This document shows, piece by piece, positions 20,583-53,137 of a stretch of DNA of 64,000 nucleotides. The stretch is from Parcubacteria group bacterium (GTDB taxonomy: Bacteria > Patescibacteriota > Minisyncoccia > 2-02-FULL-40-12 > IGHO2-01-FULL-4-A): contig JBDRCU010000057.1 of NCBI GenBank assembly GCA_043821485.1, positions 598 to 64,597 of the forward strand, given 5' to 3'. The first letter of the stretch is position 1, and every line of letters begins with the position of its first letter. Below the pieces are notes generated by a model. That model worked only from the letters and a program-made list of their open reading frames with translations, ran no database searches and was not told the origin of the DNA. A program made the position numbers and the translations under genes.

Positions 20583-20673
<91 letters not shown>

Positions 20674-20767: not shown

Positions 20768-21547
20768 ATGTTTGGAAAGCTTATACGACAACAACGCAAA
20801 AAATTTAATCTCTCGCAGGAATATCTTGCATTAGAGCTTGGTATCTCCCGCCCTACCCTTGTGCAGATTGAGCGTGGAGAGCGAGATTTGACTATAAATG
20901 AAGCGAGAAAGATTGCAGATGTTTTTGCTATGAGATTTGAAGACTTCATTGCTGGCAAAACGAGCAAGGTGCCGAAGCGGGAAGTGATTATAGAGAAAGG
21001 AAAGAGCAGACTAAAGCAGGTTGATCTTAAGATTCGCGTAACTAGTAAGAATCTGGATAAGTTTAAGCAGATACTTTTGTATATACTTGGGAAGATCGGC
21101 GGGAAACCCAATGTTGGCGAAACGGTTTTACACAAATTACTCTACTTTATTGATTTTGACTATTATGAAAAGTTTGAAGAAAACCTGATGGGTGCAACAT
21201 ACATTAAAAATCATCACGGGCCCACTTCAGTTGAGCTAGGTCCCATAATCAAAGACATGCAGGCAGATAAAGAGATAGAAACCGTGAACAGCAAATACTT
21301 TAAATATGAACAAAAGAAGTATCTTCCGCTTAAGCGCCCTGATCTTGGCAGGCTCACAGCCCGTGAAGTTGAGCACATTGATGATGTGCTTGCGCGCCTT
21401 TCGGACAAGAATGCAAAAGAAATAGAGAATTATTCGCATGGAGACATTCCGTGGAAAACGGCTGAGCGTGGCGAGCCTCTTTCATATGAAAGTGTCTTTT
21501 ATCGTGACGAAAGGTATTCCGTGAGAAATTACGATGATGAACTTTGA
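20768..21547 (+). CDS. XRE-family HTH fused to Panacea (DUF4065, SocA-like) domain: putative antitoxin
   Basis: N-terminal HTH (LSQEYLALELGISRPTLVQIERGERD). The central TVLHKLLYFIDFDYYEKF segment is typical of Panacea/DUF4065. A 14-nt overlap with the downstream RelE-like ORF. Confidence 0.65.
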   Translation: MFGKLIRQQRKKFNLSQEYLALELGISRPTLVQIERGERDLTINEARKIADVFAMRFEDFIAGKTSKVPKREVIIEKGKSRLKQVDLKIRVTSKNLDKFKQILLYILGKIGGKPNVGETVLHKLLYFIDFDYYEKFEENLMGATYIKNHHGPTSVELGPIIKDMQADKEIETVNSKYFKYEQKKYLPLKRPDLGRLTAREVEHIDDVLARLSDKNAKEIENYSHGDIPWKTAERGEPLSYESVFYRDERYSVRNYDDEL

Positions 21548-21895: not shown

Positions 21896-22459
21896 ATGCC
21901 TAATATCAGCCGTACGCTAAAAGTCTTATTCTTCTATAATTCGATTTTTATGTTTGCGGCCAAATTACTTGGTCCGCTCTATGCTATTTTTGTAGGAGGT
22001 ATTGGAGGTAGTGTAATGATGGTAAGTGTTTCCTGGGCTGTATTCATAGGTTCAGCTACATTTTTTTCAATAATAATTGCGCGCATAGGAGATAGGATCC
22101 GTCATAAAAGAAAACTTCTTGCAATGGGTTATCTTGTAAGCGCTATTGCATGGTTCGGATATCTTTTTGTAGGTTCGATTACTGGTCTTTTGATAGTGCA
22201 GATTATTCTTGGGCTTGGAGATGCTTTGGCAATCCCTTCTTTTGATACAATTTTTGCAGAACATATAGACAAAAAGATCGATGTAAGAGAATATGCCGAT
22301 TGGAATATTATTCTAAATATCGCTGTTATGATAGGCACCCTTGTAGGAGGGCTTATCGTAACACGCTTTGGATTTGATCATCTGTTTACAGTAATGGGGG
22401 TTCTTGCATTGCTAGCATCTATAGGCGTGGCGATTCAACCGAGACATGTATTAGATTGA
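21896..22459 (+). pseudogene. MFS transporter half (6 TM), probable gene fragment
   Basis: 187 aa with MFS motif-A-like loop GDRIRHKRKLL, but only about half the length of a 12-TM MFS permease. Confidence 0.4.
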
Positions 22460-23005: not shown

Positions 23006-23034
23006 TTGACAGTGGAGATCTCAAAATGTTAGCA
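23006..23034 (+). promoter_or_regulatory. sigma70-like promoter (TTGACA-17-TTAGCAT) plus tandem direct repeats TCCATATATAA/TCCATATATCA (23044..23065), candidate operator of the RHH antitoxin
   Basis: Consensus -35 hexamer, 17-nt spacer, A/T-rich -10 region. Two 11-nt direct repeats lie immediately before the antitoxin start. Confidence 0.4.
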
Positions 23035-23064
23035 TATATAAGATCCATATATAATCCATATATC

Positions 23065-23319
23065 ATGCCTATTGTGAATTTTACAGTACCGACCACCCTC
23101 GAGAGAAGAATCGTTAGTGGTATTAAGAAAAACGGCTTTTCCAGTAAAGCTGAATTTTTTCGTATGGCAGCACTTCGCTATTTACAGGAGCTTGAAATGT
23201 TAGGTATGACGTCAGATCAACGGAGAAGTTATCTCGTAAAACAAATTGATAAGCATATGACCAGACTGTACAAAGGCAAAAAGATTCCGTCGCTCGAAGA
23301 GCAGCTTGCGGATATCTGA
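23065..23319 (+). CDS. ribbon-helix-helix (CopG/Arc-like) antitoxin
   Basis: MPIVNFTVPTTLERRIV beta-strand N-terminus typical of RHH. The start is chosen at the internal ATG 23065 because the upstream part of the ORF is tandem repeats. Confidence 0.55.
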   Translation: MPIVNFTVPTTLERRIVSGIKKNGFSSKAEFFRMAALRYLQELEMLGMTSDQRRSYLVKQIDKHMTRLYKGKKIPSLEEQLADI

Positions 23320-23322
23320 CAT

Positions 23323-23673
23323 ATGCCCAGAGTTGTCATACTCCCCTATTTTTTAAAAAGTGCTAAGGGTTACCTAAAGAAGTATCGCAGTTTAGAGCGT
23401 ACTATTGTTGATGTCTTGGGAAGATTCAGCCCATCCCATCACGTTCATCTAGGTAACAATATTTATAAAGTACGTTTTTCAATTAAAGAAATTACAAAGG
23501 GAAAAAGCAAAGTATTCAGATTGATACTGCGTCTTACTTCGGATCATAAATTTTTGATACCCGTATTTATGTATTTCAAAGGAGATCGTGAGACTGTAAG
23601 TGATAATGAGATAAATGAACATCTCTCAGAGATATTATTAGAGCTTAAAGAATTCGAGAGAACTTTGAATTAG
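23323..23673 (+). CDS. RelE/ParE-superfamily toxin-like protein (paralog of 21534..21866)
   Basis: Shared motifs with the first toxin-like ORF. It starts 4 nt after the RHH gene. Confidence 0.6.
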   Translation: MPRVVILPYFLKSAKGYLKKYRSLERTIVDVLGRFSPSHHVHLGNNIYKVRFSIKEITKGKSKVFRLILRLTSDHKFLIPVFMYFKGDRETVSDNEINEHLSEILLELKEFERTLN

Positions 23674-23763
23674 ATAGGCTATAAAACGAATCAGCGCCGG
23701 GTCCCGTAATGGGAGCCCGGCGCTTGAGGTTCTAGGGGACGACGACCTTACTGTCGTCCGGAT

Positions 23764-24486
23764 TTAGTGTTGCGCCCACATGTCGTAGCAGGTCTTGCCG
23801 CCGGTTTCGCAGTCCAGCGACGCGACGTTATTGGTCTTGGCGGAATAGTGGTAGCAGGTGTAGTAGCACTGCCATATGCTTCCGTAGATACGATAAGGGC
23901 CGCAGGGTAGGTCGTTGAGCCTGCGGAATGTCACCTTGGCCTTTGCTTGGGCTGGCAGATATACGTACCCCAGGTAGTAGTACCTGGAGCACTCTACATT
24001 GAGGACCCAGAGGTCAACGTAGCTTCCGGCGTAGTATTCCTCTTTGCCGAATTTTTTAAACAGCTTGATCGTGATTTTCTTCCGGTTCATCCGGAAGTCT
24101 TCGATCCTGAACATCTCCCAGTTTGTCTCATCTACCGCGTTGGCGGTCTGGGCGGTGTCGCCGTTCAGGACGAGAGCCGAGGAGGCAGTGGACAGGCTGT
24201 CCATCTTCGCCTCGAATTCGTTCTTCGCCACGGTGGCCCCGGGCATCAGTCCGAAGACCTCATCAGGGCGATCCGTTTTTCCTTCGAATTCCTGTTCGTT
24301 CAGGAGTTCGATGTCGCGGAAGCTTCCCTGTTCGCCGTCAGTGAAGGGGGTGGGCGCGTGGTCGGCGGTCAGGTTGCTGCCGATTTCCCCGAGCGTGTCG
24401 GGGGTGACCGGATTCGAGCTGCAAGCTGCGAACGTCATCATCGCTACCACGATCAAGATCTGGAAACCGAAACCGTTCTGTCTCAT
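23764..24486 (-). CDS. lipoprotein of unknown function, GC-rich (foreign)
   Basis: Signal peptide with lipobox FAAC. Multiple C-terminal Cys (CGPYRIYGSIWQCYYTCYHY...C...C). GC content far above the host. Flanked by GC hairpins at 23690..23725 and 23740..23765. Confidence 0.55.
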   Translation of the reverse strand: MRQNGFGFQILIVVAMMTFAACSSNPVTPDTLGEIGSNLTADHAPTPFTDGEQGSFRDIELLNEQEFEGKTDRPDEVFGLMPGATVAKNEFEAKMDSLSTASSALVLNGDTAQTANAVDETNWEMFRIEDFRMNRKKITIKLFKKFGKEEYYAGSYVDLWVLNVECSRYYYLGYVYLPAQAKAKVTFRRLNDLPCGPYRIYGSIWQCYYTCYHYSAKTNNVASLDCETGGKTCYDMWAQH

Positions 24487-24620
24487 TTTCTACCTCCGGC
24501 TTGATAGCCAGTTTAGGGGCGTTTTTCTACGTAAAAGGCGCCTATAAAGCGCCTAACTATAAAGACACCTTACCATATATAACGGGTAAAGTCAAGATGT
24601 GTGACTTTGTCTAAAATAGC

Positions 24621-26150
24621 CTAAATACTCTCCATTATTTCAATATCAGCCCCTATGCTTTGAAGGCGGGTTACGAGATCTTCATATCCCCTATTTATTG
24701 AATAAACATTTCTTAATATTGAAGTACCTTCTGCTGCAAGCATGCCGATAAGTATTATTGCTGTTGGGCGAAGTGCTGGTGGCGAGACGATTTGAGATGC
24801 TTTGAGTTTGGTTGGGCCGTCTATAAAGACTCTGTGCGGATCAGCAAGCGTGATTTCAGCTCCAAGCTTATTCATATCTGTATAGTAGATAGCTCGTTGT
24901 TCATAAATCCAGTCATGGATTAATGTTTTACCTTTTGCTTGCGTTGCAATAGGTACAAAGAAAGGTAAATTATCTGGATTTATGCCAGGATAAGGTAGCG
25001 GATGGATGCTGTCTTGAGGCGCTACTAATTTGGAGGGCAAGGTTTTAATATCCATTAATTTAGTGTAACCATTCCTGCCCTTGTAGCGTTTAAGAATTTT
25101 GTATTTAAAGCCCATTTTAGACATATGTAGGAGTTCCAACTCGAGAAAATCAATAGGGCATTGGGTAATAGTGATCGTTGAATTGGTTGTTGCGGCAAGA
25201 GACAAAAAGAGCATGGACTCAATAGGGTCTTGCATGATTGGATACGAGATGTCTTTTTTGATTTTGGTTTTGCCATGGATGACTAGCGTGGAAGTACCGA
25301 TGCCGTCGATCTTTATGCCGAGCTTTTCAAGGAAATAACATAAGTCTTGAACCATATAGTTAGAAGATGCGATTTTGATTGTGGTTTTACCCGGAACAAG
25401 TGTTGAAGCCATTATGATGTTTTCAGTCGCAGTAACACTCGCTTCATACATTATAATTTCTTGATCCTTTTTGAGACGGGATGCTTGTACGTGATATGCA
25501 GTGTCAGTTGTTTTGATTTTGATTCCGAGTTTTTCAAGTGCAAATAAATGAGGCCTGACAGTTCGTTTGCCTAATTTGCAACCGCCTGCATTCGGTAGCT
25601 CGAAGTTTTTAAAATGGTGTACCAATGGGCCTATCATCATTAATACGCTTCTAGTGCGTTTGGCAGATTTCTTGTTTAGTTTATCGAGCTTAATGCGTCT
25701 TGGAGGCGTGATTTCAAGTTTGTCTCCTATCCATTTGATTGACACACCTATACTTTGAAGAACTTCTATAATCCGAAAGACCTCTTCAATGCGAGGCATA
25801 TATTCAAGTGTTGTTTTGCCTTTATTGAGAAGCGAAGCAATCAGGATTGAAAGGGCTGCATTCTTAGCAGTGTTGGTTGTAATAGTACCTGATAGTTTCT
25901 TGCCTCCGGTTATTCGGAAGTTCATAGTTGAGCCAGTGAGTTTAATCAGACTTCTATGGAGTACATGTCCCATGCGAAAAAGCATTTCCGTACTTAAATT
26001 CTGTTCGCCTTTTTCCATGCGGGCAACTGCGCTTTGGCTTGTTTTGAGAGCTTTGGCAAATTCTCCTTGCGTCATCCTGCGCTGTTCGCGTAGCCATGCA
26101 ATTAGATGGCCAATCTTTTGTTGTTGAGGGAAATCTGATTTTTTAGACAT
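24621..26150 (-). CDS. murA: UDP-N-acetylglucosamine 1-carboxyvinyltransferase (MurA) fused to an N-terminal XRE-type HTH domain
   Basis: The N-terminal 70 aa are HTH (RMTQGEFAKALKTSQSAVARMEKGEQ). The remaining ~430 aa are MurA with the catalytic loop NAGGCKLGKRTVRPH (Cys) and a C-terminal YEDLVTRLQSIGADIE. Confidence 0.8.
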   Translation of the reverse strand: MSKKSDFPQQQKIGHLIAWLREQRRMTQGEFAKALKTSQSAVARMEKGEQNLSTEMLFRMGHVLHRSLIKLTGSTMNFRITGGKKLSGTITTNTAKNAALSILIASLLNKGKTTLEYMPRIEEVFRIIEVLQSIGVSIKWIGDKLEITPPRRIKLDKLNKKSAKRTRSVLMMIGPLVHHFKNFELPNAGGCKLGKRTVRPHLFALEKLGIKIKTTDTAYHVQASRLKKDQEIIMYEASVTATENIIMASTLVPGKTTIKIASSNYMVQDLCYFLEKLGIKIDGIGTSTLVIHGKTKIKKDISYPIMQDPIESMLFLSLAATTNSTITITQCPIDFLELELLHMSKMGFKYKILKRYKGRNGYTKLMDIKTLPSKLVAPQDSIHPLPYPGINPDNLPFFVPIATQAKGKTLIHDWIYEQRAIYYTDMNKLGAEITLADPHRVFIDGPTKLKASQIVSPPALRPTAIILIGMLAAEGTSILRNVYSINRGYEDLVTRLQSIGADIEIMESI

Positions 26151-26278
26151 AATATATATTTAGGTAATAGGATTTCAATATATCACATGTGATATATTCG
26201 TGTAAAGGGTTATTCTTGATGGCAATTTAGTATCGCGGGGTTTGCGTATGTGTCCGGCTCATATATACTGGAATTACT

Positions 26279-27226
26279 ATGAAAACAATTGTAGTAACAG
26301 GAGGTGCGGGATTCATTGGATCTAATCTTGTTGATCGATTAATATCTGATGGATTTAGAGTTGTAGTAATAGATGACTTTTCTGAGGGTAAAGAAGAGAA
26401 CCTTGCTCAACACAAAGACAATGATGTGACGATATACAGACGCAGTATTACAGAAGATTTGAATGATATATTTGAAAAAGAGAGGCCCGAAGCGATTATG
26501 CATCTTGCAGCGCTTGCACGAGTACCCCTATCTATTGCTAAACCGCGTGAGACCAACGATGTAAATTTGAATGGGACACTTAATCTGTTAATCACTGCGA
26601 ATGACCATGGAGTAAAAAGATTTGTGAATTATGGAAGCTCATCTGAATACGGTGATCCACCAACACGGCCTTTTAAGGAAGATATGGTGCTCCAACCCCT
26701 ATCCCCTTATGGATTGCAGAAGCTTGCCGCGGATCACTATGCAAGACTTTTCCATATTATGCATGGCATGGAAACCATCACATTGCGTCCTTTCAATGTA
26801 TTTGGACGACGCATGAATCATGAAGGAGCATATGCATTGCTTATTGGCAAAGTTCATGCTTGGCTGTTTAATGGAGCTAGGTTTTTCATAAATGGAGACG
26901 GAGAACAGACAAGGGATTTTACATATATTGACGATGTAATAGAGGCAACAATGATTGCTATGATGACCGATAATGAAAAATGCTTTGGACAGTCATTTAA
27001 TGTGGGAGGAGGTCGCGCACATATAGTGAATGAAGTTGTGGATAAGATTATAATTTTCAGCGGTAAAAGCATATCGCCTGAGCATGGTCCTGCGCTTATT
27101 GAGCCTCATGACACTCTTGCAGATGTATCCAAGAGTAAGGAGTTATTGGGATGGGAGGCTAAAGCGGATTTTGACGAAGGATTGAAAAAAACATTTGAAT
27201 ATTTTAAAGAATTGTTTAATAAATAG
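26279..27226 (+). CDS. NAD-dependent nucleotide-sugar epimerase/dehydratase
   Basis: Rossmann motif VTGGAGFIGSNL and the YxxxK catalytic pair region (YGLQKLAADHY). Confidence 0.85.
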   Translation: MKTIVVTGGAGFIGSNLVDRLISDGFRVVVIDDFSEGKEENLAQHKDNDVTIYRRSITEDLNDIFEKERPEAIMHLAALARVPLSIAKPRETNDVNLNGTLNLLITANDHGVKRFVNYGSSSEYGDPPTRPFKEDMVLQPLSPYGLQKLAADHYARLFHIMHGMETITLRPFNVFGRRMNHEGAYALLIGKVHAWLFNGARFFINGDGEQTRDFTYIDDVIEATMIAMMTDNEKCFGQSFNVGGGRAHIVNEVVDKIIIFSGKSISPEHGPALIEPHDTLADVSKSKELLGWEAKADFDEGLKKTFEYFKELFNK

Positions 27227-27229
27227 ACT

Positions 27230-28528
27230 ATGGATCATGAAGCATTAAAACAGGATATGGATGTCTACAATGCTTTGTCTGGCGAGCAGAATCGTGTTCG
27301 AGATGGCATTGAGCTAATACCTTCAGAGAACTATGTTTCCCGTGCTGTACTTGAGGCATTGGGTTCGGTTTTTACCAATAAATATGCTGAAGGGTATCCA
27401 GGGAGGAGGTATTATGGAGGTAATAAATATACGGATATTATTGAAACTCTTGCTATTGAGCGTGCCAAGAAGATTTTTAAATCCGATCATGCCAATGTTC
27501 AGCCTTTGTCCGGCTCTCCAATGAATCAGGCGGTATATCTGGCTTTGCTTCAACCCGGAGACACAATAATGGGTATGGATTTAACTCATGGAGGGCATCT
27601 TACGCATGGTCATCCAGTTAGTCATATGGGTAAGCTATTTAATTGGATTAGGTATAAGACTCATCCGGAGAATGAGGGCAAAATTGATTTTGATGAATTG
27701 ATGGAGCTTGCTAAGAAGCATAAACCCAAGATAGTTTTGTGCGGTTATACCAGCTATCCGCGGGATTATGACTATGCTGATTTTAAACGTGTTGCAGATG
27801 AAGTCGGAGCTTTTGCTATGGCAGATGTTGCACATATCGGAGGCCTTATTGCAGGAGGCGTAATGCGAAATCCATTTGATTACGGTTTTGATATTGTTAA
27901 TACAACAACACATAAGACTTTGCGCGGTCCAAGAGGCGGTATAATTTTGACCAAAGGTAAGCCGGGCAATCCTTTGAAAAAAGTTGAGATAAGTAAAGAG
28001 AATTTGCCCGTGATTATGGATAGATCTGTATTCCCAGGTCTTCAAGGAGGTCCGCATATGAATAATATAGCAGGTATTGCTGTGGCCTTGGGCGAAGCAT
28101 TGAAACCGGAATTTAAGGAATACACAAAGCAAATACTTGTTAATGCTAAGGCATTAGCTGATGAGTTAATGAAGCGTGGAGCAGTGCTTGTAACAGGTGG
28201 TACGGATAATCATATGATGGTGATTGACTGTGTTAAGTCATTTAATATGGATGGAGGTAAAGTTGAGAAGATCCTTGATTTAGTTGGGATTACTACGAAT
28301 AAGAGTCCTGTGCCAGATGATACCAATCCTCCGTTTACTCCAAGCGGTCTTCGAATAGGCACGCCAGCAGCGACTACGCGAGGGATGAAAGAGGACGATA
28401 TGCGGTGTTTGGCAGGATGGATTATTGAAGTTATTGAGCATAATAAAGAACAGGCTAATCTTGATAGATTACAAAAAGAAATTAAAGACTTTTGTCATCA
28501 GTTTTCAATACCGGGGATAGAGTCTTAG
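27230..28528 (+). CDS. glyA: serine hydroxymethyltransferase
   Basis: PLP-lysine motif TTTHKTLRGPRGG and overall SHMT length and signature. Confidence 0.95.
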   Translation: MDHEALKQDMDVYNALSGEQNRVRDGIELIPSENYVSRAVLEALGSVFTNKYAEGYPGRRYYGGNKYTDIIETLAIERAKKIFKSDHANVQPLSGSPMNQAVYLALLQPGDTIMGMDLTHGGHLTHGHPVSHMGKLFNWIRYKTHPENEGKIDFDELMELAKKHKPKIVLCGYTSYPRDYDYADFKRVADEVGAFAMADVAHIGGLIAGGVMRNPFDYGFDIVNTTTHKTLRGPRGGIILTKGKPGNPLKKVEISKENLPVIMDRSVFPGLQGGPHMNNIAGIAVALGEALKPEFKEYTKQILVNAKALADELMKRGAVLVTGGTDNHMMVIDCVKSFNMDGGKVEKILDLVGITTNKSPVPDDTNPPFTPSGLRIGTPAATTRGMKEDDMRCLAGWIIEVIEHNKEQANLDRLQKEIKDFCHQFSIPGIES

Positions 28529-29579: not shown

Positions 29580-29651
29580 GCACCCATAGTTTAACGGATA
29601 GAACGCGGACTTGCGGAGTCCGTGATCGAGGTTCGATTCCTCGTGGGTGCA
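29580..29651 (+). tRNA. tRNA-Arg (anticodon GCG)
   Basis: Acceptor GCACCCA/UGGGUGC, anticodon stem CGGAC/GUCCG with loop UUGCGGA, T-arm CGAGG-UUCGAUU-CCUCG, discriminator A; CCA not encoded. Confidence 0.75.
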
Positions 29652-29717
29652 CTAGACTCATTGAACTCATTGCGATACAGTATTACTAGGTCGTATGTAT
29701 TTAATTTACTATATTAT

Positions 29718-52753: not shown

Positions 52754-53133
52754 GGGCTTGAAAGGCTTCGATGGAGGTTCATTTACAGGATTGAGCACGT
52801 CGAGTTTACCGATGTCTCGTAAATAATGTCGGTGCAAGATAAGTGCAAACACATCTTATCAAATGCCATCTATGGCAGGAATGTCACAAATGGCAGTAGC
52901 ATAACTTTTTAGTATAGCTACCGTCTTACCTCGGATTCTCGCTAGGGGGATAAGGCGTCATTAGCGAGAAACTTTGCCTGCTATTACTATGACGGCAGAA
53001 CATCGCAATTCCCATAGTACATTGCCTGAGCTTTTGTTCATTCCTTATCAGGCGGTGTAAATCGGAATGAACTAAACGTGTAGTATCATCTTGTATCAAC
53101 TTTCAGACGGGGGTTCGATTCCCCCCGAGTCCA
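52754..53133 (+). ncRNA. ssrA: tmRNA (ssrA)
   Basis: 5' GGGCUUGAAAGGCUUCGAUGGAGG resembles the tmRNA 5' end. The acceptor stem GGGCUUG/CGAGUCC contains a G3:U pair. T-arm GGGGGUUCGAUUCCCCC, discriminator A. The candidate tag reading frame 52845..52904 encodes ANTSYQMPSMAGMSQMAVA then a UAA stop. Confidence 0.8.
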
Positions 53134-53137
53134 CAAA
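53124..53137. repeat. left copy of 14-nt direct repeat CCCGAGTCCACAAA (tmRNA 3' end, attL-like)
   Basis: Identical copy at 53919..53932. Confidence 0.7.

What the first reader, a model, noticed from the sequence alone, without database searches (positions are those of the whole stretch)
24621..26150. MurA with an N-terminal XRE-type helix-turn-helix domain
The enolpyruvyl transferase has an intact catalytic Cys loop (NAGGCKLGKRTVRPH). It carries a ~70-aa DNA-binding-type HTH at its N-terminus in one continuous ORF.

A committed cell-wall enzyme fused to a transcription-factor-like domain is unusual. It could couple peptidoglycan precursor synthesis to autoregulation, or be a moonlighting DNA-binding enzyme.

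The gene is divergent from an epimerase/glyA pair, with a 128-bp shared upstream region where such a regulator could bind.
Basis: seen in the sequence. Interest (0 to 1): 0.55.

Follow-up and report, generated by a model that had tools for sequence, protein, structure and literature searches.

The report
Self-repressing MurA enzyme with fused HTH
In this Parcubacteria genome, and across much of the Patescibacteria (CPR), the first enzyme of cell-wall precursor synthesis (MurA) carries a DNA-binding domain. A matching palindromic operator sits inside its own promoter, so the enzyme most likely represses its own gene, which has not been described for cell-wall synthesis.

Summary
ORF 24621..26150 (-) encodes a 509-aa protein in one frame. 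It has an XRE-type HTH (Pfam HTH_3, residues 17-68) joined by about 5 flexible residues to a complete MurA with all catalytic residues.

It is not an assembly artefact. All 240 listed homologues from independent assemblies (Parcubacteria, Doudnabacteria, Saccharibacteria) have the same architecture, as do 77 of 80 metagenome loci.

The new finding is a perfect 22-bp palindrome at 26177-26198 (core ATATCACATGTGATAT), the longest in the window. It lies between and over the -35/-10-like elements of the murA promoter.

- The same dyad precedes HTH-murA in most related loci: 52 strict hits in 13 kb of upstream DNA against 5 in 457 kb elsewhere.
- It was recovered in 6 of 8 hold-out loci.
- It is absent from the one nested subclade that lost the HTH.
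- Its half-site changes together with the recognition helix.
- In 14 loci the dyad also abuts a divergent murB.

Best reading: a bifunctional "trigger enzyme" that represses its own promoter, and murB in some lineages. DNA binding, enzyme activity and any ligand control are untested. I found no paper describing it. I rate it a new variant of a known kind.

The parts
24621..26150 (-). HTH-MurA gene: 509 codons plus the stop, one continuous frame
   Evidence: An identical protein is in NCBI.
25935..26126 (-). XRE-type helix-turn-helix domain, residues 9-72. Predicted helices are 9-23, 28-34, 39-46, 54-64 and 69-72.
   Evidence: Pfam HTH_3 at residues 17-68, E 6.4e-11. AF2 model with pLDDT 64-88. 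Column identity is 0.76 across 48 homologues.
26013..26036 (-). Predicted recognition helix, residues 39-46 (QSAVARME), preceded by T37-S38
   Evidence: Helix 39-46. Residues 36-52 have 0.91 column identity. Variants of this segment co-vary with the operator half-site.
25923..25943 (-). Short flexible linker between the HTH and MurA, residues 70-76
   Evidence: Residues 70-74 have pLDDT below 50. Column identity is 0.57.
24624..25922 (-). MurA (UDP-GlcNAc 1-carboxyvinyltransferase) domain, residues 77-509
   Evidence: NF006873 scores 348.7 against a cut-off of 297. HMMER against PDB MurAs gives E 3e-57. Foldseek TM-score, normalised to the target, is 0.85-0.92 against solved MurAs.
25578..25580 (-). 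Codon of the catalytic Cys191, equivalent to E. coli Cys115
   Evidence: Invariant in 82 of 82 sequences.
26177..26198 (.). Predicted operator: perfect 22-bp palindrome AATATATCACATGTGATATATT. The conserved 16-bp core ATATCACATGTGATAT is at 26180-26195.
   Evidence: - Found.
- Longest perfect palindrome in the 64-kb window. Only 3 of 200 simulated windows reach 22 bp anywhere.
- Conserved upstream of HTH-murA in related loci.
- No second copy in the window at up to 3 mismatches.
26201..26206 (-). -35-like hexamer TTTACA of the murA promoter
   Evidence: This is a consensus match only.
26177..26182 (-). -10-like hexamer TATATT with an upstream TG, formed by the promoter-proximal arm of the palindrome
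   Evidence: The same geometry is seen in 56 of 62 related sites.
24536..24554 (-). Terminator-like hairpin about 70 nt after the murA stop: 8-bp stem AGGCGCUU/AGGCGCCU, then UUU. It suggests murA is monocistronic here.
   Evidence: fold. It is below the threshold of the scan, so only a candidate.
26279..27226 (+). Divergent neighbour, an NAD-dependent epimerase/dehydratase followed by glyA at 27230-28528. It shares the intergenic region, and co-regulation is possible but unsupported.
   Evidence: The dyad ends 83 nt before its ATG. This neighbour is not conserved next to murA in the other loci.

Best explanation
The gene encodes a bifunctional protein, a catalytically competent MurA whose N-terminal XRE-type HTH makes it the repressor of its own promoter.

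**Proposed mechanism**
- Two HTH domains, from a dimer or from two molecules that pair on DNA, bind the two half-sites of the dyad ATATCAyATrTGATAT. The half-site centres are 10 bp apart, one helical turn.
- The dyad fills the spacer and overlaps the -10 element of the murA promoter, so occupancy excludes RNA polymerase.
- MurA concentration therefore feeds back on murA transcription. This holds the first committed step of peptidoglycan precursor synthesis at a set level without a separate regulator.
- In one Parcubacteria subclade the same single dyad lies between back-to-back murA and murB promoters, and would control both first steps of the pathway.

**What is shown and what is inferred**
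- Shown by sequence and comparative analysis: the fusion, its conservation, the operator, its promoter position, its co-loss with the HTH, and helix/half-site covariation.
- Inferred: DNA binding, repression rather than activation, and enzyme activity.
- More speculative: that DNA binding changes with the ligand state of the MurA domain (open or closed, UDP-GlcNAc, PEP, UDP-MurNAc).
For: 1. **One ORF, both domains significant**. The HTH is predicted as helices 9-23, 28-34, 39-46, 54-64 and 69-72 with a flexible 5-residue tether.
2. **Same architecture widely.** It is present in all 120 listed homologues of the window protein, named Parcubacteria, Doudna-, Lipton- and Colwellbacteria and Paceibacterota. 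It is present in all 120 listed homologues of a distant member, named Saccharibacteria or Saccharimonadales. It is present in 77 of 80 metagenome loci. A query spanning the junction finds 136 clusters at 50% identity with E <= 1e-10.
3. **The HTH is conserved like the enzyme.** Column identity is 0.76 for the HTH, 0.91 for the recognition helix and turn, and 0.80 for MurA.
4. **Operator in the window.** A perfect 22-bp palindrome at 26177-26198 is the longest in the window. It lies inside TTTACA-18-TGaTATATT.
5. **Operator elsewhere.** Strict dyad matches number 52 in 13.4 kb of murA-upstream DNA and 5 in 457 kb elsewhere. Four of those 5 are still upstream of murA. 51 of 74 HTH loci pass the strict score and most others carry degenerate copies.
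6. **Hold-out test.** In 8 newly fetched loci the best-scoring 16-mer of the whole 4.5-kb locus lies just upstream of the murA ATG in 6.
7. **Co-loss.** The 4 HTH-less MurAs form one clade nested inside the HTH clade, and none has the dyad.
8. **Covariation**. TSQSAxAR pairs with ATATCA, TSQSSxPR with ATCTCA, TTQSxxAR with ATAGCA, and SQSAxNR with ATACC/ATATC.
9. **Promoter framing.** 56 of 62 dyads are framed by -35/-10-like pairs with the dyad in the spacer or over the -10.
10. **Catalytic residues.** K22, N23, R91, C115, R120, D305, R371 and R397 (E. coli numbering) are invariant in 82 of 82 sequences. The fold matches solved MurAs.
11. **Nearest solved HTHs** are the DNA-binding repressors CylR2 and PezA.
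Against: - No experiment supports any step. DNA binding, repression and catalysis are all inferred.
- Promoter calls are sigma-70 consensus matches in AT-rich DNA, and the dyad itself contains a TATAAT-like sequence. Part of its conservation could therefore reflect promoter conservation. The symmetric left arm and symmetric compensatory changes argue against that as the whole explanation.
- Covariation classes largely follow clades, so the number of independent switches is small. There are exceptions: L020 has a TTQS helix with an ATATCA site, and L077 has an NR helix with ATATCA.
- About a quarter of loci have only degenerate sites. One hold-out locus (L082) has two weak sites only.
- MurA is generally regarded as monomeric (own knowledge), so how two HTHs are brought together is unknown.
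- I could not check whether these genomes carry a second, HTH-less murA. None is present in the 64-kb window.
Confidence: 0.75

Rival explanations
1. The HTH does bind the dyad, but the MurA domain acts as a built-in metabolite sensor as well as an enzyme. Binding of UDP-GlcNAc, PEP or the downstream product UDP-MurNAc shifts the enzyme between open and closed states. That shift changes HTH pairing or affinity, so murA (and murB) transcription tracks the precursor pool, as biotinyl-AMP does for BirA. This refines the best explanation rather than contradicting it.
For: - The tether between the HTH and the first MurA strand is only about 5 residues, so the enzyme's conformation could plausibly be transmitted.
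- Solved MurAs exist in unliganded, UDP-GlcNAc-bound and UDP-MurNAc plus PEP-adduct states (entries listed: 1naw, 3kqj, 3su9, 3swd, 8d84). The domain therefore has distinct ligand states, including one that binds a downstream product.
- Described trigger enzymes work this way (PMC8249747 and PMC5397151).
Against: - Nothing in the sequence data distinguishes ligand-modulated binding from constitutive autorepression.
- The model gives no confident HTH-MurA interface, and the linker has pLDDT below 50.
- One subclade lost the HTH and the operator without visible change to MurA, so the coupling is dispensable.
Confidence: 0.35
2. The HTH-MurA binds the dyad but activates rather than represses, or the dyad is bound by a different, separately encoded regulator while the fused HTH has another target.
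For: - Direction of regulation cannot be read from sequence alone.
- The window encodes other HTH_3 proteins, for example at 20768-21547.
Against: - The dyad lies in a 16-18-bp spacer and over the -10, which is the classic position for steric repression. Activators normally sit at or upstream of -35 (own knowledge).
- The dyad travels with the fused HTH across phylum-level lineages whatever the neighbouring genes are.
- It disappears when the HTH is lost.
- It co-varies with the fused HTH's recognition helix.
Confidence: 0.07
3. The MurA domain is a catalytically inactive ligand-binding module of a transcription factor, and the working MurA is encoded elsewhere in the genome.
For: - The TIGR01072 equivalog score is below its cut-off, 334 against 392.7.
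- Asp369 (E. coli numbering) is replaced by Pro or Ala throughout the clade.
- Whole genomes could not be searched for a paralogue.
Against: - All residues known to be needed for catalysis are invariant in 82 of 82 sequences.
- The subfamily model NF006873 passes its cut-off.
- The enzyme domain is as conserved as a housekeeping enzyme.
- The HTH-less members of the same clade are plain MurAs.
- There is no second murA in the window.
Confidence: 0.05
4. The HTH is a protein-protein docking module, as in RodZ, whose XRE-like HTH binds MreB. It would tether MurA to the cytoskeleton or the divisome and would not bind DNA.
For: - RodZ is a precedent for an XRE-type HTH used for protein binding (PMC9804626, listed, not read; the MreB-binding role of the HTH is own knowledge).
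- mreB is a frequent neighbour of HTH-murA, divergent in about 9 loci.
Against: - There is no Pfam HTH_25 (RodZ-type) hit at E <= 0.1.
- A protein-docking role does not predict a conserved dyad in the gene's own promoter, its co-loss with the HTH, or helix/half-site covariation.
Confidence: 0.03
5. Assembly or gene-calling artefact: two adjacent genes, an XRE regulator and murA, were merged by a frameshift or chimeric contig.
For: None beyond the a priori possibility. Raw reads cannot be inspected here.
Against: The same in-frame junction occurs in hundreds of independently assembled sequences from NCBI, JGI, ENA and Logan, with a conserved short linker. No split form was seen among the 89 loci fetched.
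Confidence: 0.01

Closest known systems
PutA (proline utilisation A) of E. coli and Salmonella, a trigger enzyme
   Same: [quoted passage not shown] HTH-MurA appears to have the same logic at murA, and at the murA/murB spacer in 14 loci.
   Different: - PutA uses a ribbon-helix-helix domain rather than an XRE HTH (own knowledge).
- It is catabolic, and it switches by membrane association in the presence of proline.
- There is no sequence relationship to MurA.
- The switch for HTH-MurA, if any, is unknown.
BirA, the group II biotin protein ligase and bio repressor
   Same: An N-terminal HTH is fused to an essential enzyme. HTH-bearing (group II) and HTH-less (group I) forms both occur naturally (PMC4016012, abstract). 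This parallels the HTH-less MurA subclade. The enzyme's own ligand state controls operator binding (own knowledge).
   Different: - BirA has a winged HTH.
- In E. coli it regulates the bio operon rather than its own gene (own knowledge).
- Its co-repressor is its reaction intermediate. No co-repressor is established for HTH-MurA.
RbkR (archaeal riboflavin kinase/regulator) and NadR
   Same: These are DNA-binding domains fused to pathway enzymes. They were recognised by comparative genomics, by finding conserved operators upstream of pathway genes, and some lineages have lost the DNA-binding domain (PMC5397151).
   Different: According to that paper, all described trigger enzymes act in vitamin/cofactor or amino-acid metabolism. 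None acts in cell-wall synthesis.
Canonical MurA (E. coli, E. cloacae, C. jejuni; PDB 1uae, 1naw, 5ujs)
   Same: - Same fold, with TM-score 0.85-0.92.
- Same catalytic Lys, Cys, Arg and Asp residues.
- Passes the NCBIfam MurA subfamily cut-off.
   Different: - It has an added 75-residue HTH and linker.
- It is only about 28% identical.
- It has an insertion of about 11 residues (KRYKGRNGYTK...) relative to 5ujs.
- Asp369 is not conserved.
- It scores below the TIGR01072 equivalog cut-off.
Small XRE-family repressors (CylR2, PDB 1utx; PezA; 434 Cro/cI type)
   Same: The HTH_3 domain has similar length and helix order. These are the nearest solved sequences. Such proteins bind short dyad operators overlapping promoters as dimers (own knowledge).
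   Different: - The match is weak, E about 0.008.
- Those proteins are stand-alone or carry a dedicated dimerisation element.
- Here the only partner domain is an enzyme.

Membership tests
MurA (UDP-N-acetylglucosamine 1-carboxyvinyltransferase) | Scores above a curated MurA family cut-off | tested here: met
   NF006873 scores 348.7 bits against a cut-off of 297. The stricter equivalog TIGR01072 scores 334 against 392.7, so it is a divergent member.
MurA (UDP-N-acetylglucosamine 1-carboxyvinyltransferase) | Two-lobed EPSP-synthase/MurA fold | tested here: met
   Pfam PF00275 at residues 81-495. The AF2 model has pLDDT 87. Foldseek against solved MurAs gives E 1e-38 to 1e-33 and target-normalised TM-score 0.85-0.92.
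MurA (UDP-N-acetylglucosamine 1-carboxyvinyltransferase) | Catalytic loop Cys115 plus Lys22, Arg91, Arg120, Asp305 and Arg397 (E. coli numbering) | tested here: met
   The equivalents are C191, K96, R167, R196, D393 and R487. All are invariant in 82 of 82 sequences and in A1. The motif alignment to PDB 5ujs agrees.
MurA (UDP-N-acetylglucosamine 1-carboxyvinyltransferase) | Enolpyruvyl transfer from PEP to UDP-GlcNAc | not testable with these tools
   Needs an enzyme assay or complementation.
XRE-family HTH (Pfam HTH_3) DNA-binding regulators | Significant HTH_3 match above the gathering score | tested here: met
   42.6 bits against 23, E 6.4e-11, residues 17-68.
XRE-family HTH (Pfam HTH_3) DNA-binding regulators | Compact four- to five-helix fold with helix 2-turn-helix 3 | tested here: met
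   DSSP helices at 9-23, 28-34, 39-46, 54-64 and 69-72, with pLDDT 64-88.
XRE-family HTH (Pfam HTH_3) DNA-binding regulators | A conserved dyad-symmetric candidate operator associated with the regulator gene | tested here: met
   A 16-bp dyad is enriched about 350-fold upstream of HTH-murA. It was recovered in hold-out loci and co-varies with helix 3.
XRE-family HTH (Pfam HTH_3) DNA-binding regulators | Sequence-specific DNA binding | not testable with these tools
   Needs EMSA, footprinting or ChIP.
Trigger enzymes with a fused DNA-binding domain (BirA, PutA, NadR, RbkR type) | A catalytic domain and a DNA-binding domain in one polypeptide | tested here: met
Trigger enzymes with a fused DNA-binding domain (BirA, PutA, NadR, RbkR type) | Operator located at genes of the enzyme's own pathway | tested here: met
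   The dyad is in the promoter of murA itself. In 14 loci it is 9-10 nt from the ATG of a divergent murB.
Trigger enzymes with a fused DNA-binding domain (BirA, PutA, NadR, RbkR type) | DNA binding switched by the substrate or product state of the enzyme | not testable with these tools
   No computation available here addresses it.
RodZ-type HTH (protein-binding XRE-like HTH) | HTH_25-type domain followed by a transmembrane segment and a periplasmic domain | tested here: not met
   No HTH_25 hit at E <= 0.1. The HTH is followed directly by MurA, with no membrane segment.

The most novel reading that the evidence does not exclude
HTH-MurA is a one-protein feedback circuit for cell-wall precursor supply. 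The MurA domain senses the UDP-sugar and PEP pool through its open-to-closed transition, including the UDP-MurNAc-bound dormant state. It transmits this through a 5-residue tether to the HTH. Operator occupancy at murA, and at the murA/murB divergent promoter in some lineages, would then follow flux through the pathway. This would be the first trigger enzyme in peptidoglycan synthesis and a major regulator in regulator-poor Patescibacteria.
Probability: 0.3. Interest if true: 0.8.

Novelty: new variant of a known kind. Interest (0 to 1): 0.66.

Why it matters
- **A concrete regulator in a poorly understood phylum.** Patescibacteria (CPR) make up a large share of bacterial diversity. They have tiny genomes and few recognisable regulators, and almost nothing is known about how they control transcription (own knowledge). 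This analysis gives a regulator-operator pair with a defined 16-bp site, a predicted promoter architecture and a natural loss-of-function clade. All of it is directly testable with a purified protein and a 22-bp oligonucleotide.
- **A new setting for trigger enzymes.** It would extend the trigger-enzyme principle from vitamin and amino-acid metabolism (PMC5397151) to the committed step of peptidoglycan synthesis. MurA is the fosfomycin target, and in model bacteria it is controlled quite differently, by proteolysis or feedback inhibition (own knowledge).
- **A small specificity code.** The natural helix/half-site covariation offers a recognition code for an XRE HTH.
- **Compact promoter design.** The back-to-back leaderless murA/murB promoters sharing one dyad are an unusually compact regulatory arrangement.

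Tried and rejected
- **Genome-contig scan.** Searching with the single protein returned only one locus.
- **Regex gene finder.** My first finder missed half the loci. I replaced it with tblastn-anchored start calling. A few start codons remain uncertain (L012, L037, L039, L060, L086), which shifts the reported site-to-ATG distances for those loci.
- **Second operator in the window.** None at up to 3 mismatches, so there is no evidence for a wider regulon here.
- **Second murA in the window.** None found. Whole genomes could not be searched.
- **Literature.** Seven full-text searches found no description of an HTH-MurA fusion. The library lacks most subscription journals, so this is absence of evidence only.
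- **RodZ-like docking role.** Considered and rejected; see the rival explanations.
- **RNA structure role for the palindrome.** Rejected because the dyad lies upstream of the inferred transcription start, overlapping the -10.
- **Solved relative of the HTH.** Only marginal hits, E about 0.008.
- **Internal start giving an HTH-less isoform.** Rejected as a conserved feature. Met76 of the window protein is Val, Ile or Ala in most homologues.
- **Co-regulation of the epimerase/glyA pair in the window.** Not supported. The scan reported no + strand promoter directed at the epimerase that overlaps or follows the dyad, and the epimerase is not a recurrent neighbour.
Full report
**1.

The window has one uninterrupted ORF on the minus strand, 24621..26150, 509 aa, starting at ATG. 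Pfam finds HTH_3 at residues 17-68 (E 6.4e-11, 42.6 bits against a gathering score of 23). It finds EPSP_synthase at 81-495 (E 2.7e-47). NCBIfam places residues 77-506 in the MurA subfamily model NF006873 (348.7 bits, cut-off 297). The stricter equivalog TIGR01072 is missed (334 against 392.7), so this is a divergent MurA. The quoted catalytic loop NAGGCKLGKRTVRPH is present, with the Cys codon at 25578-25580. The upstream genes are divergent: an NAD-dependent epimerase at 26279-27226 and SHMT/glyA at 27230-28528.

**2. It is not an artefact, and not a peculiarity of this genome**

The identical protein is in NCBI as a "Parcubacteria group bacterium" MAG protein. All 120 best homologues (60-73% identity, about 505 aa, from NCBI, JGI, ENA and Logan) carry HTH_3 plus EPSP_synthase. 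Their source names include Parcubacteria, Patescibacteria, Doudnabacteria, Liptonbacteria, Colwellbacteria and Paceibacterota.

A profile-guided scan of metagenome contigs returned 80 loci, and 77 have the HTH in frame. A search starting from the most distant of these (L075) again gave 120 of 120 fusions, this time named Saccharibacteria or Saccharimonadales. A 124-residue query spanning the junction finds 136 clusters at 50% identity with E <= 1e-10, most of them aligned across residues 10-124. No solved structure covers the N-terminal part.

**3. Anatomy of the protein**

An AlphaFold2 model built on 48 homologues has mean pLDDT 87 and pTM 0.81. It shows helices at 9-23, 28-34, 39-46, 54-64 and 69-72, the XRE pattern with helix 39-46 as the recognition helix, at pLDDT 64-88. 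A low-confidence tether follows at residues 70-74, and the first MurA strand begins at residue 75.

The MurA part superposes on solved MurAs with target-normalised TM-scores of 0.85-0.92. Residues equivalent to E. coli K22, N23, R91, C115, R120, D305, R371 and R397 are invariant in all 82 sequences examined. The motif alignment to PDB 5ujs agrees. Asp369 is not conserved (Pro or Ala), and there is an insertion of about 11 residues relative to 5ujs. Only motif-level statements rest on it.

The HTH is conserved about as strongly as the enzyme. Column identity is 0.76 for the HTH and 0.80 for MurA, and it reaches 0.91 for residues 36-52. The nearest solved HTH sequences are the repressor CylR2 and the antitoxin/repressor PezA, at marginal E-values.

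**4. A palindromic operator lies in the promoter**

The 128-bp spacer contains a perfect 22-bp palindrome, AATATATCACATGTGATATATT, at 26177-26198. It is the longest perfect palindrome in the 64-kb window; the next longest is 16 bp. Only 3 of 200 Markov-simulated windows contain one of 22 bp or more anywhere.

On the murA strand it lies inside TTTACA-18 nt-TATATT, with a TG one base upstream of the -10. It therefore fills the spacer and forms the -10. No second copy occurs in the window at up to 3 mismatches.

**5. The operator is conserved with the fusion**

I anchored gene starts by tblastn and scored every 16-mer for dyad symmetry plus the core pattern AT..CA.A/T.TG..AT.
- Strict hits numbered 52 in the 13.4 kb lying -150 to +20 of murA starts, against 5 in the remaining 457 kb. 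Four of those 5 are still upstream of murA, at -156 to -338.
- 51 of 74 HTH loci with at least 60 nt of upstream sequence pass the strict score. Most of the others show recognisable degenerate copies.
- As a hold-out test I fetched eight further loci through exact-protein look-ups: named Doudna-, Lipton- and Colwellbacteria, Paceibacterota, Saccharibacteria, and contigs of 1.21 Mb and 669 kb. In six, the best-scoring 16-mer of the whole 4.5-kb locus lies just upstream of the murA ATG. One has a degenerate site at -19. One (L082) has two weak sites.

**6. Loss of the HTH goes with loss of the operator**

Four loci (L001, L056, L061, L071) encode MurA of the same clade, 65% identical in the enzyme part, without the HTH. 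None has the dyad. In a neighbour-joining tree of the MurA domain they form a single clade nested inside the HTH-bearing sequences. This indicates one secondary loss of the domain and the site together.

**7. The recognition helix and the half-site co-vary**

| Recognition-helix class | Half-sites found |
|---|---|
| TSQSAxAR | ATATCA in 26 of about 31 half-site equivalents |
| TSQSSxPR | ATCTCA in 12, ATATCA in 5 |
| TTQSxxAR | ATAGCA in 8.5 of about 12 |
| SQSAxNR (Saccharibacteria type) | ATACC or ATATC arms with a variable centre |

Changes are usually mirrored in both arms. The classes largely follow clades, so independent events are few. However, TS and TT helices are interleaved within one larger clade and their sites switch with them. 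Exceptions exist (L020, L077).

**8. Promoter geometry**

In 56 of 62 non-identical sites a -35/-10-like pair with a 16-18-nt spacer frames the dyad, which occupies the spacer and overlaps the -10. These are consensus matches in AT-rich DNA, not evidence of function on their own. The recurrent arrangement is nevertheless the classic position of a repressor. In 27 of the 56, the -10 ends 6-9 nt before the ATG, which implies leaderless murA mRNAs. In the window the gap is 26 nt.

**9. Neighbours**

What lies next to murA varies. Upstream neighbours are divergent murB (14 loci), mreB (about 9), glyA (9 Saccharibacteria-type loci plus two hold-out loci), parB or tRNAs. Twelve loci have miaA downstream.

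The murB case is informative. The murB ATG lies 9-10 nt from the first base of the dyad in most of the murB loci examined, including those where the murA ATG is 122-140 nt away. On the murB strand the sequence reads TGATATAAT-TGCAAT-ATG, an extended -10 followed six bases later by the start codon. In that subclade a single dyad therefore sits between two back-to-back promoters for the first two committed steps of the pathway.

In the window the divergent neighbour is an epimerase. The dyad ends 83 nt before its ATG, and I have no evidence that it is co-regulated.

**10. Interpretation**

The best-supported model is a bifunctional protein of the trigger-enzyme type. An active MurA uses its fused XRE HTH to bind a dyad operator in its own core promoter and repress it, giving negative autoregulation of the first committed step of peptidoglycan precursor synthesis.

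The closest analogues are PutA, BirA and RbkR/NadR:
- PutA is an enzyme-repressor that binds only the spacer between putA and putP (PMC8249747).
- BirA occurs in HTH-bearing and HTH-less groups (PMC4016012).
- RbkR and NadR are covered in PMC5397151, which notes that all described trigger enzymes act in vitamin/cofactor or amino-acid metabolism.

Whether operator binding responds to the ligand state of the MurA domain is open. MurA does have well-separated unliganded, substrate-bound and UDP-MurNAc/PEP-adduct states in solved structures, and the tether is very short. Nothing here tests the coupling.

**11. Limits**

- No step has experimental support.
- Patescibacterial promoters are uncharacterised.
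- The related loci were selected by similarity: the best 80 of at least 575.
- Some start codons are uncertain.
- I could not search complete genomes for extra operators or a second murA.
- Raw reads could not be inspected.
- Seven literature searches found no description of this fusion, in a library that lacks most subscription journals.

**12. Verdict**

- The architecture is common in Patescibacteria but, as far as I could find, functionally undescribed.
- I rate it a new variant of a known kind (trigger enzymes), with interest 0.66.

Noticed in passing
L013, L015, L017, L023, L029, L059 and other loci of the murB cluster (14 loci in all): A divergent murB lies next to HTH-murA. In 6 of the 8 murB loci measured, its ATG is 9-10 nt from the first base of the dyad (TGATATAAT-TGCAAT-ATG on the murB strand), even where the murA ATG is 122-140 nt away. 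This implies a leaderless murB and one operator shared by two back-to-back promoters.
   Followed up: partly
Related loci L002-L081; for example L015, L024, L053, L075: In 27 of 56 sites the -10-like hexamer ends 6-9 nt before the murA ATG. This points to leaderless murA transcripts in many Patescibacteria. In the window the gap is 26 nt.
   Followed up: partly
L001, L056, L061, L071: A single nested subclade of the same MurA clade has lost both the HTH domain and the upstream dyad. It is a natural deletion control.
   Followed up: yes
window 27230-28528; L065-L079, L086, L087: glyA (SHMT) is divergently adjacent to HTH-murA in Saccharibacteria-type loci. In the window it is also adjacent, with an epimerase inserted between. 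This may be an old synteny. No functional link was examined.
   Followed up: no
window 23700-24600: A GC-rich island (0.51-0.62 against 0.40 for the window) holds ORF 23764-24486 (-). The ORF is 240 aa, has a lipoprotein-like N-terminus (..MTFAACSS) and no Pfam match. It may have been acquired horizontally.
   Followed up: no
window 24536-24554 (-): An 8-bp GC-rich hairpin followed by UUU lies about 70 nt after the murA stop. It looks like a terminator but is below the scan threshold.
   Followed up: partly
window 20768-21547 (+), 23026-23319 and 23323-23673 (+): An HTH_3 plus SocA/Panacea antitoxin-type protein is at 20768-21547. A tightly spaced pair of small genes without Pfam hits looks like a toxin-antitoxin module.
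   Followed up: no
window 21896-22459 (+): A 187-aa ORF matches only the first 166 of 347 positions of the MFS_1 profile. It is probably a truncated transporter gene.
   Followed up: no
window 52754-53134 (+); 113-187, 20583-20672, 29580-29652: The window holds a tmRNA with tag peptide ANTSYQMPSMAGMSQMAVA and three tRNA genes.
   Followed up: no
window residues 458-461 and 352-372 of the protein (about 24770-24780 and 25035-25097): This MurA clade replaces Asp369 (E. coli numbering) with Pro or Ala. It also has an insertion of about 11 residues (KRYKGRNGYTK...) relative to solved MurAs. The consequences for catalysis or fosfomycin sensitivity are unknown.
   Followed up: no
L004, L007, L009, L082: A Doudnabacteria-like subclade carries two degenerate dyads instead of one perfect dyad. 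One is distal, right after a terminator-like hairpin, and one is close to the ATG.
   Followed up: partly
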